Source: a virus. Taken from it: 36,452 nucleotides of DNA. Below are positions 56 through 36,026 of the stretch, one piece after another. A program made the translations under genes and the position numbers. The DNA lies in IMG/VR virus record IMGVR_UViG_3300045988_087108, positions 1-36,452 of that record. One strand, 5' to 3'. The notes under the pieces were generated by a model that made no database searches, was not told where the DNA came from, and saw nothing but the letters and a program-made list of their open reading frames with translations. Numbering within the stretch: the stretch's first letter is position 1; every line of letters starts with the position of its first letter.

Positions 56-425
56 AACAAAGATGGACGCTGGACACTACATCTCACGTGGAAAGTATGC
101 TACAAGGTGGAGCGAGGATAATGTCCACCCGCAGTGCCTGACAGAAGACAGTAAACTTAGAATGTTCAATGGCACTAATAAAAGCATAGCAGACATTAAA
201 ATCGGAGATAAACTATGGGCTTTTGACAAAGGCACTTTTGAGCCTGAAGTTGCGGTTGTTGAAAATGTCGATAGCTTTATGCCTAGTGAGCTTTACGAGG
301 TTGAAATGGAGAACGGCGACAAGTTCTATGCTACAGGCGACCACAGAGTGGTTGCGAATGGTAAGTGGGAGAACGTAAGTCATATGTTGCAAAGTCAGTC
401 TACGTATGATATTTTTGAACTATGA
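3..425 (+). CDS. ninG: NinG-like recombination endonuclease N-extein (up to nt 134) fused to a split-intein N-fragment (135-422). The true start is ATG 36304, across the circular junction.
   Basis: Extein motifs CCTCG...DAGHYISRG...NVHPQ match the NinG pattern. From Cys at 135 the sequence is CLTEDSKL (intein block A), then FYATGDHRVV (block B, TxxH). Stop at 423-425. Confidence 0.75.
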   Translation, partial: PDGRILNKCCTCGVVQDITKMDAGHYISRGKYATRWSEDNVHPQCLTEDSKLRMFNGTNKSIADIKIGDKLWAFDKGTFEPEVAVVENVDSFMPSELYEVEMENGDKFYATGDHRVVANGKWENVSHMLQSQSTYDIFEL

Positions 426-1013
426 AAAAAGCACTATTTGACAAGACGGAACATACTAAATGGTACATAGCTGAGGACGGCACTGTGTGGAGTTCTAGCA
501 CTTATCATAAAAACGGCAAGTTAAGAAAAAGGTGTGTCCAAAGAAACAAAAGAGGATACTATTATGCAAGAACTACCAACGGTAACTACCAGGTCCATAG
601 ACTTGTAGCTAGTGCTTTTATACCAAATCCAGAAAACAAGCCAGAGGTAAATCATAAAGACTTCAATAAACAAAACAACTCAATCGAAAACCTTGAATGG
701 GTAAGTCATAAAGAAAATATGAGACATGCTATTGATAACGGGAGGATTGCTCTACTGCCAAAAGACAGCGGAACAAATCTAAAATACACCAAAGAACAAT
801 GTCTAACGGTAATATCACTAGTTGAAAGTGGGCTTACATACAAAAAAGCTGGAGAACAAGTTGGAATGCCGTATTCAACAGTAGCTCACTTAATCACAGG
901 GAGGAGGAGAAGTTATGCGAGTAAAATCAATCAAAAAAGTTGAGCCTAGGAGAGTTTACGCAGTGCAAACGTCTACAGGCACATTTATAGCAGATGGATT
1001 AGCTCATCACAAT
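135..1013 (+). mobile_element. Split (fractured) intein with a free-standing HNH homing endonuclease ORF between IntN and IntC.
   Basis: IntN is 135-422 (96 aa) and IntC is 915-1013 (33 aa, ending AHHN before Cys+1). The host frame between them has several stops (423 tga, 468 tag). Removing 135-1013 restores the NinG motif HPQ-CKRCN. Confidence 0.75.
422..943 (+). CDS. HNH homing endonuclease (HNH_3 type with a C-terminal HTH), free-standing between the intein halves.
   Basis: Motif VHRLVASAFIPNPENKPEVNHKDFNKQNNSIENLEWVSHKEN, and a C-terminal HTH-like segment LTYKKAGEQVGMPYSTVAHLI. The ATG overlaps the upstream stop (ATGA at 422-425). The frame differs from the host gene. Confidence 0.85.
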   Translation: MKKALFDKTEHTKWYIAEDGTVWSSSTYHKNGKLRKRCVQRNKRGYYYARTTNGNYQVHRLVASAFIPNPENKPEVNHKDFNKQNNSIENLEWVSHKENMRHAIDNGRIALLPKDSGTNLKYTKEQCLTVISLVESGLTYKKAGEQVGMPYSTVAHLITGRRRSYASKINQKS

Positions 1014-32665: not shown

Positions 32666-33121
32666 ATGCCTAAGAAAACCACTAAAAAACGAGAGAAATC
32701 ACCAGAGGAGGAAGCACTGGACATTCTGGAGAAGCTCACAAAAGGTTTGGAGGGAGCGTTAAATAGCGAACCCGAACTACGAAAAAAAGCTGATGAGTTA
32801 GCAGAGGCTATAACAGAAAGTCATGACAAAAACTCATTTACCCGTAGGAGTATGAAGACCGCTATACGCGTTTTGATGGTCGCGGATACTATCGAAAAAG
32901 AAGAGGTTGAGATTAAAGACGTCGCAGAAATGAAAGCGGTACTTACCATGACTGCCGAGACTGTGTTTGGTCTGTCCCGACTTGAGGCTGTTCTCTTTGC
33001 AAGAGAAGTTGGCAAAAACGCTTTTGAGGCTTACAAAGAAGGGCGTGAAAAAGAGGACACAGCTGTCTATAAAACTCTGATAGCACTGTCTGTGTGCCTA
33101 GAAAACTTCAAAGAGGGTTAA
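32666..33121 (+). CDS. Hypothetical protein.
   Basis: ORF with an AAAGGGGG RBS downstream of P5. Confidence 0.55.
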   Translation: MPKKTTKKREKSPEEEALDILEKLTKGLEGALNSEPELRKKADELAEAITESHDKNSFTRRSMKTAIRVLMVADTIEKEEVEIKDVAEMKAVLTMTAETVFGLSRLEAVLFAREVGKNAFEAYKEGREKEDTAVYKTLIALSVCLENFKEG

Positions 33122-33197
33122 ATAACACTGCAAAACTGCCGTCTTGCAAACGGTCGCACCTTTCATTATTTAATTAAAATGGAGATACGTAGGAAAT

Positions 33198-35069
33198 ATG
33201 GCAAACTTCTCTGGGTTAAATACCCTCTTAAACGAAATTGACAAAACAGTTTCAGACAAAATCGATGATAAAATCAGCAACGAAATACCAGAGCTGAAAA
33301 AGCTGGTAAAAAACGCTGAGAAATCTATCAAAGAAAATCTGCCGATGAAAGTCGAGTACGACGGCAAGCTACATGACGTTAAAGGTCTACGCCACAAAGC
33401 GTTGGATAATCTTATTGTGATGGCTTCGCAGAAAATCCCCGTGCTGTTAGTCGGAATGGCAGGGTGCTTTGCGAAAGGCACAGAAGTGCTTACAGCAAAC
33501 GGATATAAGCCAATTGAGGAAATCACAGAGGGCGAAGTCGTGGCAAGCTTTGATAATGAGCAGATTGTTTATAATAAGGTCGCTCAGACAGCTAGGATTG
33601 ACGACCAGCCAAAACCAATGATACAATTTAGATATGGGAATGAAACAATCAGAGCTACCTATGACCACCCTTTCTTCGACGGAGAAAGATATTATCCGCT
33701 CTATCAGCTTGCCTGGAGAGATATGGAGACAAGCCAAAGGATTCAGCTCAAACTATTATGCGAGCAATATGGGCAGACTTTTGACTACAAAACATCACGG
33801 GGGGTATCATATCGCGATTCTCAAACCTGGGAAAGACAAGGACGGGCATTTACGAACAGCGATGAACGGAAAAACTGTCAAGGTACACAGAGTGGTGGCT
33901 CAGACGTGGATACCCAACCCAGAAAACAAGCCAGAGGTGAATCACAAGAACTCAAACCCTGCCGACAACAGAATAACGAACCTGGAGTGGGTTACACACC
34001 AGGAGAACGTAAAACACGGTTACGAGAATGGAAGAATAAAAGAGTCGTTAGCCAAGGCAGTTGCAAAAACACGAAAGTACGACAGAGACGAGCTGCGAGC
34101 GATACAGAGATGGTGGGACACTCATACTGCTTCAGTGGGGAAAAAGGATTGGAAAGCAAGACACCAATTGTTAGAGCAATTGCAGAAGATGTATCCGCAC
34201 ATAGCGAAAACGACGCTCAAAAATATACGACTAAAGCGAGACATTTACAAGACGTTGTAGTTCTTGAGGCTGAGCCATACTATGCCTTAAGCATTGAGAA
34301 TGTCCATACCTATATTGTCAGTAGAGAAAACCTGCCTGTTCATAATACAGGAAAGACGCACGCTGCTGCTCAAGTCGCTGAGGCACTGGGATTAAGCCAC
34401 TACACAATGTCTGTAGGCGCTCAAACATCTAAATCAGACATAATCGGCTACATGCACGCCTCTGGCGGTTACGTGCCGACGCTCTTCCGAAAAGCATATG
34501 AGGAGGGCGGAGTATTCTTGATGGACGAAATCGACGCTGGCAATGCTAACGTCCTTATCCAGGTCAATGCGGCGCTTTCTAACGGCTTCTGTGCCTTTCC
34601 AGACAAGATGGTGGAACAACACAAAGACTTTGTCTTTATCGCCTCTGCTAACACGTTTGGAAACGGTGCTAACCGTATGTACGTTGGTCGTAACCAGCTT
34701 GACGCTGCTACCCTTGACCGCTTTGCCGTCTTAGTCTGGGACATTGACGAGAAGCTGGAAGACAAAATGACAGAAGCCTACGGAGACACTGGCAAGAACT
34801 GGCTCAAGGTGGTGCGAGAGCTGAGAAAGACTATTGAGAATGACGGTATCCGAGCTTTGGTAACGCCACGTGCTACTATTAAAGGTTGCTCTTTACTAAA
34901 TATCGGGCTTGACTTTGAGACTGTCCTAAACGCTGTGATTGTGGAAAACTTGCCGAGCGACAAGAAGTCTCGCTACCGCGACATGGCTAAGAAAAAATGG
35001 GACGAGACTTCCGAAACTGAGAAAGCACACGAGACAGCCGAGGCGGAAGAAGCTGAGATAATCTGGTAG
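33198..35069 (+). CDS. AAA_5 (MoxR/CobS-like) ATPase precursor with an intein in the Walker A loop.
   Basis: Exteins join as PVLLVGMAG-TGKTHAAAQVAEALGL (Walker A GxxGTGKT). Walker B GGVFLMDEID. Downstream DAATLDRF. Confidence 0.85.
   Translation: MANFSGLNTLLNEIDKTVSDKIDDKISNEIPELKKLVKNAEKSIKENLPMKVEYDGKLHDVKGLRHKALDNLIVMASQKIPVLLVGMAGCFAKGTEVLTANGYKPIEEITEGEVVASFDNEQIVYNKVAQTARIDDQPKPMIQFRYGNETIRATYDHPFFDGERYYPLYQLAWRDMETSQRIQLKLLCEQYGQTFDYKTSRGVSYRDSQTWERQGRAFTNSDERKNCQGTQSGGSDVDTQPRKQARGESQELKPCRQQNNEPGVGYTPGERKTRLREWKNKRVVSQGSCKNTKVRQRRAASDTEMVGHSYCFSGEKGLESKTPIVRAIAEDVSAHSENDAQKYTTKARHLQDVVVLEAEPYYALSIENVHTYIVSRENLPVHNTGKTHAAAQVAEALGLSHYTMSVGAQTSKSDIIGYMHASGGYVPTLFRKAYEEGGVFLMDEIDAGNANVLIQVNAALSNGFCAFPDKMVEQHKDFVFIASANTFGNGANRMYVGRNQLDAATLDRFAVLVWDIDEKLEDKMTEAYGDTGKNWLKVVRELRKTIENDGIRALVTPRATIKGCSLLNIGLDFETVLNAVIVENLPSDKKSRYRDMAKKKWDETSETEKAHETAEAEEAEIIW
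33465..34346 (+). mobile_element. 294-aa contiguous intein (Cys1 ... His-Asn, Thr+1). Its central linker is overprinted by an out-of-frame HNH endonuclease ORF.
   Basis: Block A CFAKGTEVLTANG. Block B IRATYDHPFF. Blocks F/G DVVVLEAEPYYALSIENVHTYIVSRENLPVHN|T. The roughly 190 codons between them are polar and low-complexity, and have no stop in the host frame. Confidence 0.8.
33634..34260 (+). CDS. HNH homing endonuclease (NUMOD4 + HNH_3) encoded in an alternative frame inside the intein. The start codon is uncertain.
   Basis: EIWRQAKGFSSNYYASNMGRLL (NUMOD4-like). VHRVVAQTWIPNPENKPEVNHKNSNPADNRITNLEWVTHQEN is paralogous to 422-943. Its stop at 34258-34260 coincides with the start of the intein C-terminal blocks. 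Confidence 0.75.
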   Translation: MGMKQSELPMTTLSSTEKDIIRSISLPGEIWRQAKGFSSNYYASNMGRLLTTKHHGGYHIAILKPGKDKDGHLRTAMNGKTVKVHRVVAQTWIPNPENKPEVNHKNSNPADNRITNLEWVTHQENVKHGYENGRIKESLAKAVAKTRKYDRDELRAIQRWWDTHTASVGKKDWKARHQLLEQLQKMYPHIAKTTLKNIRLKRDIYKTL

Positions 35070-35078
35070 GAGGTCTAG

Positions 35079-36026
35079 ATGGATTTGATAGACTACACGA
35101 CACTAGAAAACACCGTCAAGGGCGATGGCTTTGTCTACGGAGAGTATTCTATAAGTAAAACCAAGACCAAATTGACATATTTTGATGAGGGAGAGCTTTG
35201 CGGAAAGTTCGATGGAATAGACATATTCCTAGATGTGATATCTAACCAACTGAAAGATGGGCGCGGCAGATATAATTCTTCGCAAGACAAAGGCGACGGT
35301 GATTTTCAAATGTTCAAAACTTATGAAGAAGCGATGGACACGTTCAAGAATAATCCATCCAAGGTGGCAGACTTCATGCAAAAAGACGAGAGGATTTTAG
35401 GCGGAGACAGTGCTGGAATGAGCGTAGATTATGACGTTACTGGCGACTTCATCGACATGGGAAGATATGTCGAGGGGATACCAGAGACCTTTGGAAGCAT
35501 GTACAATGGAAATCCACGCTCCAAGCGAGTAAACATTCTAATCCCTGCAATGATAAGCTGCGGGGTGAGTTACAAGCTAATCAACCATAGGTCAAAACGG
35601 GTGAAACGCCTTGTAGACTGGCTAGAGGCAAACCAAGTGAGGTGTGCGGTTACTATCATGTTCACGAACGACAACTGGCACTGTGAGATAGTCGTCAAGA
35701 AGTTTGATGAGGTCTTTAACATAAACGACATAGCAATCGCTACGCACTCTGATTTCTTCAGACGCTGCCAGTTCAAGTTCGGCGAAAACTCTAAAACACT
35801 CTACAGTGGTTATGGTTCGCCAAGACAGTTTTGGAATAACACAAAGGTAAAGAATATGATGAACCAAGAATACAACAACGAGTTTAATGTAGTAATTGGC
35901 AGTAAGTTAGAATATACAGAGCAGATAGACAAAGATATGGACGACCTTGAGAAGAGATTGAGCAAAAGAATATTTGAAGAAGAAAGTAACGAAGCTATGC
36001 TAGGTTGCATGCTGGGGAGTGAGTAG
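35079..36026 (+). CDS. Hypothetical protein, probable partner of the AAA_5 ATPase.
   Basis: ORF with a GTAGGAGG RBS 9 nt after the ATPase stop. No motif recognised. Confidence 0.55.
   Translation: MDLIDYTTLENTVKGDGFVYGEYSISKTKTKLTYFDEGELCGKFDGIDIFLDVISNQLKDGRGRYNSSQDKGDGDFQMFKTYEEAMDTFKNNPSKVADFMQKDERILGGDSAGMSVDYDVTGDFIDMGRYVEGIPETFGSMYNGNPRSKRVNILIPAMISCGVSYKLINHRSKRVKRLVDWLEANQVRCAVTIMFTNDNWHCEIVVKKFDEVFNINDIAIATHSDFFRRCQFKFGENSKTLYSGYGSPRQFWNNTKVKNMMNQEYNNEFNVVIGSKLEYTEQIDKDMDDLEKRLSKRIFEEESNEAMLGCMLGSE

What the first reader, a model, noticed from the sequence alone, without database searches (positions are those of the whole stretch)
33465..34346. Intein in the ATPase P-loop whose HNH homing endonuclease is overprinted in a different reading frame
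The AAA_5 ATPase ORF (33198-35069) is interrupted between GMAG and TGKT by a canonical intein (Cys1, TxxH block, terminal HN, Thr+1).

Normally the endonuclease domain is in frame. Here a NUMOD4+HNH endonuclease is encoded by a separate ORF (33634-34260) in another frame. It begins right after intein block B and ends exactly where blocks F/G begin.

The host frame stays open across all of these roughly 190 overlapping codons and encodes only a polar, low-complexity linker.

Direct evidence of selection: in the HNH frame I counted roughly three dozen T-ending codons. None is followed by AA, AG or GA, so the host frame has no TAA, TAG or TGA. Yet such codons (K, N, E, D, R) make up nearly half of the ORF. 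The paralogous HNH ORF at 422-943 closes the equivalent frame within 20 codons (ttt|gac, act|aaa, gct|gag).

This implies a dual-coding region of about 600 nt. One message yields a splicing-competent precursor and an independently translated, or frameshift-derived, homing endonuclease. No Shine-Dalgarno precedes any candidate ATG (33634, 33640, 33661), so how the HNH ORF is expressed is an open question. I do not know of a described intein with this architecture.
Basis: partly seen in the sequence, partly recalled or inferred. Interest (0 to 1): 0.9.

Follow-up and report, generated by a model that had tools for sequence, protein, structure and literature searches.

The report
Intein with an overprinted HNH endonuclease gene
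A phage ATPase gene is interrupted in its ATP-binding loop by a self-splicing protein element (intein), and the intein's homing endonuclease is a separate gene written over the intein's middle in another reading frame; both frames have stayed open in about a dozen diverged relatives, but this kind of architecture was first described in 2025.

Summary
ORF 33198-35069 (623 aa, AAA_5 ATPase) carries a 294-aa Hint-type intein (33465-34346) between GMAG and TGKT of Walker A. A NUMOD4+HNH_3 ORF (33634-34260) lies in the +1 frame. The host frame has no stops across its 208 codons, against 10-13 expected (0 of 200,000 synonymous shuffles).

Independent assemblies at 92-96% identity keep both frames open. 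Their substitutions are synonymous in the host frame outside the overlap and synonymous in the HNH frame inside it.

The same composite sits at Walker A of AAA_5, CbbQ-like, RecA-like, PIF1, SNF2-like and terminase genes. All ~20 loci examined keep the host frame open. None of 78 free-standing relatives does.

The HNH product models confidently (pLDDT 91.5) and matches I-HmuI. The host-frame reading of the same DNA is unstructured.

The HNH start has no Shine-Dalgarno. A conserved extended -10 element ends six bases before the ATG, which suggests a leaderless transcript; this step is inferred.

A 2025 preprint describes inteins with endonucleases in a separate frame, and a 2025 paper describes an out-of-frame HNH without an intein. 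I rate this a new variant of a known kind.

The parts
33198..33464 (+). N-extein of the AAA_5 (MoxR/CobS-like) ATPase, ending in GMAG, the first half of Walker A.
   Evidence: ORF listing. Intein-less orthologues P0003 and P0004 read LLVGMAGTGKTH. Differences between relatives are mostly synonymous in this frame.
33465..34346 (+). Intein in the host frame, 294 aa, from Cys1 to the terminal His-Asn. The next residue is Thr+1.
   Evidence: Hint-family Pfam hits. With the linker removed it aligns end to end with 2LWY. The same 294-aa unit is present in P0001, P0002, L005 and L006.
33465..33728 (+). N-terminal splicing lobe of the Hint domain: block A (CFAKGTEVL) and block B (TYDH, 33657-33668). 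From 33634 onward it is also read in the HNH frame, so both frames are constrained there.
   Evidence: AF2 pLDDT is 55-75 for residues 1-60.
33598..33627 (+). Promoter-like site inside the intein coding sequence: TTGACG, 18 nt, TG-n-TACAAT. The -10 hexamer ends 6 nt before ATG 33634, so the A of the ATG would be the transcription start (leaderless candidate).
   Evidence: Promoter scan: 10 of 12 matches and the only site with a TG extension. TGnTAnnnT lies 6-9 nt before the first ATG in 11 of 16 lineages, against 1.4% of all ATGs. Host third positions are more conserved here than in neighbouring codons.
33634..34260 (+). Overprinted homing-endonuclease gene, 208 codons, +1 frame. NUMOD4 is at about 33718-33852 and HNH_3 at about 33880-34011, followed by a C-terminal helical region. 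The stop codon TAG is at 34258-34260.
   Evidence: Pfam. Purifying selection acts in this frame: 28 synonymous and 11 non-synonymous differences between the window and L003. AF2 pLDDT is 91.5. The only significant Foldseek hit is I-HmuI, 1U3E.
33729..34235 (+). Host-frame linker: about 170 polar codons that are only the shadow of the HNH gene. It is kept free of stops but has no amino-acid constraint.
   Evidence: No Pfam hit. AF2 pLDDT is about 25. Host-frame differences are 7 synonymous and 32 non-synonymous. Zero stops against 10-13 expected.
34236..34346 (+). C-terminal splicing lobe of the Hint domain: blocks F and G (VVVLEAEPYYALSIENVHTYIVSRENLPVHN).
   Evidence: Aligns with the C-terminus of 2LWY up to VHN. 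All differences between relatives are synonymous in the host frame. AF2 places strands at residues 261-277.
34347..35069 (+). C-extein of the ATPase, starting with TGKT, the second half of Walker A.
   Evidence: AAA_5 and AAA Pfam hits. Purifying selection: 55 synonymous and 14 non-synonymous differences.
422..943 (+). Free-standing HNH paralogue, 33% identical to the nested one. It is not part of the element and was used as an internal control.
   Evidence: Alignment. It has 16 stops in the equivalent -1 frame.

Best explanation
**What it is.** This is a mobile intein whose homing endonuclease is a separate, overprinted gene rather than an in-frame domain.

**How it works.**
1. The ATPase message is translated in the host frame straight through the intein. 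That includes about 170 codons that are merely the out-of-frame shadow of the HNH gene and give a polar, unstructured loop.
2. The N- and C-terminal Hint lobes come together and splice. This restores Walker A (GMAG-TGKT) and yields a 329-aa ATPase.
3. The I-HmuI-like NUMOD4-HNH endonuclease is made independently from the +1 frame. It starts at ATG 33634, or at the ATG that block B itself creates at 33661.
4. Most likely the endonuclease message is a leaderless or near-leaderless transcript. It would be fired by an extended -10 promoter embedded in the intein coding sequence.
5. The endonuclease nicks or cuts intein-free alleles at the Walker A coding site. Repair then copies the whole intein-plus-endonuclease unit.

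**What holds it together.** A host-frame stop would destroy the ATPase, and loss of the HNH would end mobility. Both frames are therefore held open. The HNH gene achieves this by using few T-ending codons and never placing one before an AA, AG or GA codon.

**Shown versus inferred.** Shown here: the two ORFs, selection on each frame, the domain and fold assignments, and conservation of the composite across many host genes. Inferred: splicing, the endonuclease start and promoter, and homing. The confidence of 0.8 is for the overall picture (a functional intein with an independently expressed, overprinted HNH gene). The leaderless-promoter step on its own I put at about 0.45.
For: **Dual coding beyond chance**
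- Zero host-frame stops against 10-13 expected, and none of 200,000 shuffles open.
- The same holds in 18 loci from about 12 lineages, with 7-15 stops expected and at most 1 of 20,000 shuffles open. L031 and L032 also fit.

**Natural controls**
- Free-standing relatives have 16-20 stops in that frame.
- None of 78 genomic relatives is open, with a median of 11.7 stops per 100 codons.

**Not an assembly error**
- Identical-length alleles at 96% and 92% identity occur in separate samples, without indels.

**Selection switches frame at the overlap**
- Between the window and L003, differences in the overlap are 28 synonymous and 11 non-synonymous in the HNH frame. They are 7 and 32 in the host frame.
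- In the C-extein they are 55 and 14 in the host frame.

**Intein features**
- Cys1, TYDH, the terminal HN and Thr+1 are present.
- The linker-deleted sequence aligns over residues 2-127 with the 2LWY Hint domain (E 2.8e-6). It covers positions 2-136 of the 137-position PT-HINT model.
- Intein-less orthologues have a seamless GMAGTGKT.
- No RNA family is detected, so there is no sign of an intron.

**The HNH looks like a working protein**
- pLDDT is 91.5 and the fold matches I-HmuI at E 1.2e-7.
- The host-frame linker has pLDDT about 25.

**The unit moves as one**
- Identity of the non-overlapping Hint part tracks HNH identity across 11 lineages (Mantel r 0.80, p 1e-4).
- It always sits before [ST]GK[ST] of Walker A. 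The host genes are AAA_5, CbbQ-like, RecA, PIF1, SNF2-like and terminase.

**Codon adaptation**
- The T-ending codon fraction is 0.12-0.25 in the nested HNH genes. It is 0.16-0.36 (mostly 0.22-0.36) in their exteins and 0.28-0.32 in the free-standing copies.

**Expression**
- No Shine-Dalgarno precedes the first ATG: +0.4 kcal/mol against a median of -6.4 for the window's genes. The same holds in 13 of 15 loci.
- TTGACG-18-TGnTACAAT ends 6 nt before the ATG. TGnTAnnnT is present in 11 of 16 lineages, against a 1.4% background.
- On my reading of the sequences, 7 of those 11 have a TTGnnn element 17-18 nt upstream. It is encoded by different host amino acids and in two codon phases.
Against: - Nothing was tested experimentally: not splicing, not translation of the HNH frame, not the transcription start, not cleavage.
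- Hint-family Pfam scores for the window sequence are below the curated cut-offs (best 27.3 against 27.7).
- The AF2 model of the intein is poor (mean pLDDT 39, only 7 sequences).
- The promoter argument is weakened in three ways. The lineages share ancestry. The -10 element coincides with a conserved host peptide, PMI(Q/E)F. Five of 16 lineages lack the motif at that spacing.
- Within the window's own clade I found only intein-containing alleles, so recent homing is not demonstrated.
- One relative (L016) has a broken HNH frame, which shows that the endonuclease can decay.
Confidence: 0.8

Rival explanations
1. Frameshift-derived endonuclease. Ribosomes translating the ATPase message shift +1 between 33622 and 33718. 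They produce an N-extein / N-intein / HNH fusion that ends at 34260. No independent initiation is needed.
For: The candidate ATGs have no Shine-Dalgarno. The HNH frame opens only four codons before the first ATG, so a short window for shifting exists.
Against: There is no conserved slippery or pausing motif. The host codons between the HNH-frame stop and block B are the least conserved in the region. Every lineage keeps an in-frame ATG within about 10 codons of block B. The fusion would be a dead-end, unspliceable product.
Confidence: 0.07
2. Internal initiation on the full-length ATPase mRNA without a dedicated promoter. Ribosomes start at ATG 33634 or 33661 in an A/U-rich, unstructured stretch, without a Shine-Dalgarno. 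The promoter-like motif would then be a by-product of the conserved Hint peptide KPKPMIQF.
For: The sequence upstream is A/T-rich. The -10-like hexamer is encoded by conserved host residues. Five of 16 lineages lack the motif at the expected spacing yet keep the HNH. Arsenault et al. (PMC11855218) also invoke initiation without a ribosome-binding site for a hidden HNH.
Against: Synonymous host positions in AAA-CCt-ATG-aTA-gAA-TTT are more conserved than their neighbours. In my reading of the sequences, the -35-like TTG is kept through different amino acids and codon phases. The spacing puts the predicted transcription start exactly on the A of the ATG.
Confidence: 0.3
3. Decaying or non-mobile relic. 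The HNH ORF is a recently frameshifted, formerly in-frame endonuclease domain and no longer does anything. The open host frame is all that matters.
For: L016 has a truncated HNH frame with an open host frame. No intein-free allele was seen among the closest relatives.
Against: The HNH frame is under purifying selection. It is intact in nearly all lineages, down to about 40% identity. No in-frame version turned up among 965 HNH relatives. The closest relatives outside inteins are free-standing genes. The product models at pLDDT 91.5.
Confidence: 0.05
4. Non-splicing tolerated insertion, like the ShiLan domain. The insert stays in the mature ATPase.
For: Hint Pfam scores are below the curated cut-offs for the window sequence. 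Splicing was not tested.
Against: The insert splits Walker A between GMAG and TGKT, where a 294-aa insertion should abolish nucleotide binding. All catalytic intein residues are conserved in every lineage. Some family members pass the Pfam Hint cut-offs: L008 scores 31.0 on Hint_2 and L021 scores 29.6 on PT-HINT.
Confidence: 0.04

Closest known systems
Non-canonical inteins with the homing endonuclease in a separate frame or strand (Gosselin, Arsenault and Gogarten, bioRxiv 10.1101/2025.01.02.630785; antisense LAGLIDADG first noted by Gorbalenya 1998, as cited there)
   Same: A complete intein has a central region that is meaningless in the host frame but encodes an endonuclease in another reading. 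The preprint includes one same-strand case (endonuclease VII-like, frame 3). It also reports terminase large subunits as hosts, proposes invasion of an intein by a free-standing endonuclease gene, and describes switching between host genes through shared nucleotide-binding motifs.
   Different: The endonuclease here is a NUMOD4 + HNH_3, I-HmuI-like enzyme in the +1 frame; the HNH inteins in that survey are in frame. The hosts here are uncultured phages from oral, gut, digester and other metagenomes, not actinobacteriophages. No member occurs in 50,697 GenBank phage records. All insertions are at Walker A. I also add a statistical test of frame openness, natural controls and a candidate internal promoter.
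ShiLan domain and Pacc40 insertions: hidden out-of-frame HNH in mycobacteriophage DNA methylases (Arsenault et al. 2025, PMC11855218)
   Same: An HNH gene is overprinted out of frame on an insertion that stays open in the host frame. There is no recognisable ribosome-binding site, and leaderless initiation is proposed.
   Different: Those insertions have no splicing domains and are thought to remain in the mature protein. Here the HNH lies between intact Hint lobes, in an active-site loop where removal is required.
[quoted passage not shown] 2009, PMC2677866)
   Same: A free-standing-type endonuclease gene with its own expression signals sits at the endonuclease insertion point of an intein in phage-like DNA-metabolism genes. 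The evolutionary model is the same.
   Different: In fractured genes the host frame is broken and splicing occurs in trans. The endonucleases are GIY-YIG or Vsr-like. Here the host frame is continuous, so splicing would be in cis, and the two genes overlap fully.
I-HmuI and related free-standing or intron-encoded NUMOD4-HNH endonucleases of phages
   Same: The fold and motifs match: 1U3E at E 1.2e-7 and 34% identity over 121 columns, plus the Pfam domains NUMOD4 and HNH_3. The free-standing sister P0127 is 53% identical and lies next to an SNF2-like helicase gene.
   Different: I-HmuI is encoded in a group I intron and the others are free-standing. None of them has to keep a second frame open; 0 of 78 relatives does.

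Membership tests
Intein (class 1, Hint fold) | N-terminal nucleophile (Cys or Ser at position 1) in block A | tested here: met
   Cys1 in CFAKGTEVL at 33465. It is conserved in all lineages.
Intein (class 1, Hint fold) | Block B TxxH motif | tested here: met
   TYDH at 33657-33668. The Y, D and H columns are invariant and the first is T in all 14 lineages; the anchoring pattern itself required [TS]YDH, so these columns were partly pre-selected.
Intein (class 1, Hint fold) | Blocks F and G with a terminal Asn (usually His-Asn), followed by Cys, Ser or Thr at +1 | tested here: met
   The window reads ...LPVHN|TGKT. Relatives have HN, SN or AN followed by S or T.
Intein (class 1, Hint fold) | Recognisable Hint domain by profile or structure | tested here: inconclusive
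   The linker-deleted sequence aligns end to end with 2LWY (E 2.8e-6) and covers positions 2-136 of the 137-position PT-HINT model. The score is 27.3 against a cut-off of 27.7. Relatives L008 and L021 pass the cut-offs. The AF2 model has low confidence.
Intein (class 1, Hint fold) | In-frame insertion in a conserved site, with intein-less homologues that are seamless across the junction | tested here: met
   P0003 and P0004 read GMAGTGKT.
Intein (class 1, Hint fold) | Protein splicing actually occurs | not testable with these tools
   Needs expression followed by western blot or mass spectrometry.
Non-canonical intein with an out-of-frame homing endonuclease (Gosselin et al. 2025) | Endonuclease ORF located between the splicing blocks, in a frame other than the intein's | tested here: met
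   The +1-frame ORF 33634-34260 lies between blocks B and F.
Non-canonical intein with an out-of-frame homing endonuclease (Gosselin et al. 2025) | The host-frame reading of that region is open but unstructured and unassignable | tested here: met
   Zero stops, no Pfam hit and pLDDT about 25.
Non-canonical intein with an out-of-frame homing endonuclease (Gosselin et al. 2025) | Same endonuclease family as the described same-strand cases (endonuclease VII-like) | tested here: not met
   The domains are NUMOD4 + HNH_3 with an I-HmuI-like fold, not Endonuclease_7. This is why I call it a new variant.
HNH homing endonuclease (I-HmuI-like, NUMOD4 + HNH_3) | HNH beta-beta-alpha-metal motif with conserved His and Asn residues | tested here: met
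   HNH_3 at 1.6e-10, above the cut-off. H85, H104, N112 and N116 are invariant in 43 sequences. Matches 1U3E.
HNH homing endonuclease (I-HmuI-like, NUMOD4 + HNH_3) | Site-specific nicking or cleavage of the element-free allele, and homing | not testable with these tools
   Supported only indirectly: purifying selection and spread across six host-gene families at the same motif.
Fractured gene / split intein (Dassa et al. 2009) | Host gene broken into two ORFs, with intein halves on separate polypeptides | tested here: not met
   The host frame is continuous in all loci examined.
Group I or II intron carrying an HNH ORF | Ribozyme core detectable, with no requirement for an open host frame | tested here: not met
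   No Rfam match at E up to 1 in 33100-34600. The host frame is under selection to stay open.

The most novel reading that the evidence does not exclude
This could be a long-lived, obligately overprinted mobile unit: a Hint splicing domain plus a free-standing-type I-HmuI-like endonuclease gene. The endonuclease would be transcribed from a promoter written inside the intein's own coding sequence, as a leaderless mRNA whose first base is the A of the ATG. The unit would have hopped between at least six unrelated P-loop NTPase genes by targeting the Walker A coding sequence. If so, it is a stable evolutionary state, not a brief intermediate between a free-standing endonuclease and a canonical in-frame intein. 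It would also give a general answer to how hidden endonucleases are expressed.
Probability: 0.4. Interest if true: 0.78.

Novelty: new variant of a known kind. Interest (0 to 1): 0.62.

Why it matters
**Origin of inteins.** Inteins are thought to have gained mobility when free-standing endonuclease genes invaded splicing-only inteins. Captured stages of that process are rare.
- This family shows such a composite held for a long time. HNH identity falls to about 40% between lineages.
- Selection on two overlapping frames is measurable.
- A free-standing sister gene sits beside an uninterrupted target-type gene.
- The unit has moved repeatedly between unrelated ATPases through the shared Walker A motif.

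**Annotation.** Gene callers report only the long ORF, so pipelines miss these endonucleases and take the inteins for decaying ones or mini-inteins.

**Experiments.** The locus is a clean test bed. Each frame can be knocked out with changes that are silent in the other. It can show how a fully nested gene without a ribosome-binding site is expressed in phage.

Tried and rejected
**Rejected explanations**
- Sequencing or assembly artefact with two compensating indels. Independent assemblies have the same length and no indels, and the arrangement recurs in about 12 diverged lineages.
- Chance open frame. Rejected by shuffles, by the window's other genes and by 78 free-standing relatives.
- Group I or II intron. 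No Rfam hit.
- Split intein. The host frame is continuous.
- Programmed frameshift. No conserved shift site.
- A Shine-Dalgarno hidden near any start. None at 33634, 33640, 33661 or TTG 33709.

**Searches that led nowhere**
- Megablast against phage records found nothing.
- tblastn of the intein against 50,697 phage records found only weak N-terminal Hint matches.
- The word-indexed protein search with the 294-aa intein returned only two hits and missed known relatives. The exhaustive phmmer search was needed.
- AF2 on the host-frame intein with a 7-sequence alignment gave a poor model. It is usable only for the contrast between the lobes and the linker.

**Not found**
- No in-frame HNH-intein ancestor appeared among the HNH relatives.
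Full report
**1. The observation**

ORF 33198-35069 (623 aa) and a nested ORF 33634-34260 (208 aa) lie on the + strand. The nested ORF is in the +1 frame relative to the host.

Pfam places AAA_5 and AAA on host residues 384-509, and Hint-family models on residues 87-383. It places HNH_3 (1.6e-10) and NUMOD4 (3e-5) on the nested ORF.

The insert starts at Cys 33465 after GMAG and ends with His-Asn at 34346 before TGKT. It is 294 aa, and block B (TYDH) is at 33657-33668.

In the HNH frame there are 34 T-ending codons. None of them precedes any of the 68 codons that begin with AA, AG or GA, so the host frame has no stop.

Two details in the finding are slightly off. The ORF starts 23 nt before block B and overlaps it. 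The at-risk codons are one third of the ORF, not nearly half.

**2. More than chance**

- Synonymous shuffles expect 10.3 host-frame stops when codons are shuffled within the ORF, and 13.3 when they are drawn from the window's usage. None of 200,000 shuffles of either kind was open.
- In 44 other genes of the window, the same relative frame has a stop density of 0.07. Its longest open run is 118 codons.
- The window's own free-standing HNH paralogue (422-943, 33% identical) has 16 stops in that frame.

**3. Not an artefact, and which frame is selected**

Proteins P0001 (96% identical) and P0002 (92%) are also 623 aa. They come from separate metagenome assemblies, including a 38-kb human oral contig. 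Both frames are open and there are no indels.

The phase of substitution switches exactly at the overlap:

| Region (window vs L003) | Host frame, syn / non-syn | HNH frame, syn / non-syn |
|---|---|---|
| C-extein | 55 / 14 | 12 / 57 |
| Overlap | 7 / 32 | 28 / 11 |

So the HNH protein is under purifying selection. The host-frame linker is only kept open.

**4. A family, not a one-off**

The same 294-297-aa unit occurs in a CbbQ-like AAA protein (L005) and a RecA-like protein (L006). Their HNH products are 56-58% identical to the window's.

I scanned metagenomic and viral contigs with the HNH alignment and examined the 16 closest relatives, at 45-97% identity. Every one is nested in a longer ORF in the -1 frame that carries intein blocks.

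- All 18 loci I tested have zero host-frame stops, against 7-15 expected.
- Called HNH proteins P0123 and P0126 proved to be nested as well.
- The insertion is always directly before [ST]GK[ST] of Walker A.
- The host genes are AAA_5, AAA_5/CbbQ, RecA, PIF1 helicase, SNF2-like helicase and several terminase large subunits.
- An exhaustive phmmer search of 1.84 billion cluster representatives found 38 hits at E ≤ 1e-10. About 35-40 representatives matched the full length including the linker.
- No cultured phage in GenBank carries the element.

**5. Natural controls**

P0127 is 53% identical to the window's HNH. It is a free-standing gene immediately upstream of an SNF2-like helicase whose P-loop is intact, and its -1 frame has 20 stops.

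Among 78 further relatives in bacterial genomes, none has an open -1 frame. The minimum is 4 stops and the median is 11.7 per 100 codons.

Nested genes use few T-ending codons. The fraction is 0.12-0.25, against 0.16-0.36 (mostly 0.22-0.36) in their exteins and 0.28-0.32 in free-standing copies.

**6. What the two readings encode**

The HNH product models at pLDDT 91.5. Its only significant PDB match is the homing endonuclease I-HmuI (1U3E, E 1.2e-7).

The host-frame intein models poorly, with mean pLDDT 39 from a shallow alignment. The pattern is still informative: 55-75 in the N lobe, 52-63 in the C lobe and about 25 across residues 96-261.

With the linker removed, the sequence aligns end to end with the solved Hint domain 2LWY (E 2.8e-6). 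It covers positions 2-136 of the 137-position PT-HINT model at 27.3 bits, just under the 27.7 cut-off. The linker alone hits nothing.

Intein-less orthologues read GMAGTGKT. No RNA family is detected.

**7. The unit evolves as one**

Across 11 lineages, identity of the Hint part that does not overlap the HNH tracks HNH identity (Mantel r 0.80, p 1e-4). This fits a single origin of the composite followed by movement between host genes.

One member (L016) has a truncated HNH with an open host frame. That is what a decaying endonuclease would look like.

**8. Expression (inferred)**

The first ATG has no Shine-Dalgarno. Its anti-SD duplex energy is +0.4 kcal/mol, against a median of -6.4 for the window's genes, 78% of which are at or below -4. 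The same holds in 13 of 15 loci, whereas free-standing P0127 has one at -6.3.

A promoter-like site lies at 33598-33627: TTGACG, 18 nt, TG-n-TACAAT.
- It scores 10 of 12 and is the only site in 3 kb with a TG extension.
- Its -10 hexamer ends 6 nt before ATG 33634. That puts the expected start on the A of the ATG.
- TGnTAnnnT lies 6-9 nt before the first ATG in 11 of 16 lineages. The background is 1.4% of all ATGs in these loci.
- Host synonymous positions in this stretch are more conserved than in neighbouring codons.
- Reading the sequences, 7 of those 11 lineages have TTGnnn 17-18 nt upstream. It is encoded by different amino acids and in two codon phases (aTT GAC, acT TGT, xTT GCT).

This points to an internal promoter that gives a leaderless mRNA. 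Three caveats apply. The lineages share ancestry. The -10 coincides with a conserved host peptide. Five lineages lack the motif at that spacing.

Block B itself (acc TAT GAC) creates a second, widely conserved ATG, at 33661 in the window. It is the first ATG in some lineages.

I found no conserved frameshift site.

**9. Comparison with what is known**

- Gosselin, Arsenault and Gogarten (bioRxiv 10.1101/2025.01.02.630785) report actinobacteriophage inteins whose endonuclease lies on the antisense strand (LAGLIDADG, Vsr-like) or in frame 3 (endonuclease VII-like). The HNH inteins in that survey are in frame.
- Arsenault et al. (PMC11855218) report an out-of-frame hidden HNH in a methylase without splicing domains. 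They suggest leaderless initiation.
- Dassa et al. [quoted passage not shown]
- Searches for intein with NUMOD4, out-of-frame or overlapping reading frame found no description of this family.

**10. Verdict**

The claim that nothing like it has been described is out of date.

It is a new variant of a recently recognised kind. It uses a different endonuclease family and occurs in different phages. It is specific to Walker A. It also comes with unusually strong comparative evidence for long-term dual coding, plus a testable hypothesis for expression.

Splicing, the endonuclease start and homing remain to be shown.

Noticed in passing
window 422-943: A free-standing HNH endonuclease gene, 33% identical to the nested one. 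Its ATG overlaps the end of the upstream ORF (18-425) and it has no Shine-Dalgarno. I used it only as a control (16 stops in the -1 frame).
   Followed up: partly
L018 2203-5085: A terminase large subunit with two inteins. One is the overprinted-HNH type, in the P-loop. The second is an ordinary intein further downstream (Intein_splicing 6e-19, residues 689-932).
   Followed up: no
L016 2501-2893: A family member in an SNF2-like helicase. Its HNH frame is cut short at about 130 codons while the host frame stays open. This looks like a decaying endonuclease inside a still-intact intein.
   Followed up: partly
L029 798-1406 and 1408-2661: The closest free-standing relative of the nested HNH (P0127, 53% identical). 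It ends two bases before an SNF2-like helicase gene whose Walker A (AAETGVGKT) is uninterrupted and lies about 25 codons in. This is the layout expected of an endonuclease that targets its neighbour.
   Followed up: partly
P0027 (822 aa, homologue of the window ATPase): A different, LAGLIDADG-containing insert in the same Walker A, placed after GTGK rather than before TGK. It apparently begins with Gly instead of Cys. The same P-loop has therefore been invaded independently.
   Followed up: no
P0122 (354 aa): A family member whose sequence diverges from the block F/G consensus near its end. It may be a frameshifted or decaying intein C-terminus.
   Followed up: no
window 1-36452: The window looks like most of a siphovirus-type phage genome of about 38 kb. 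It encodes terminase, portal, major head, tape measure, endolysin-like, replication initiator and RecT-like proteins. It has no tRNA genes. Near-identical contigs come from human oral metagenomes.
   Followed up: partly
window 35079-36026: The gene directly downstream of the ATPase encodes a DUF7192 protein. In L005 the equivalent neighbour is a CobT/VWA-like protein. This suggests a conserved ATPase-plus-partner pair of unknown role.
   Followed up: no
Listeria phage LMTA-94, KJ586795.1 15574-16314: The homologous ATPase region is annotated as two hypothetical proteins. The gene may be split or interrupted there.
   Followed up: no
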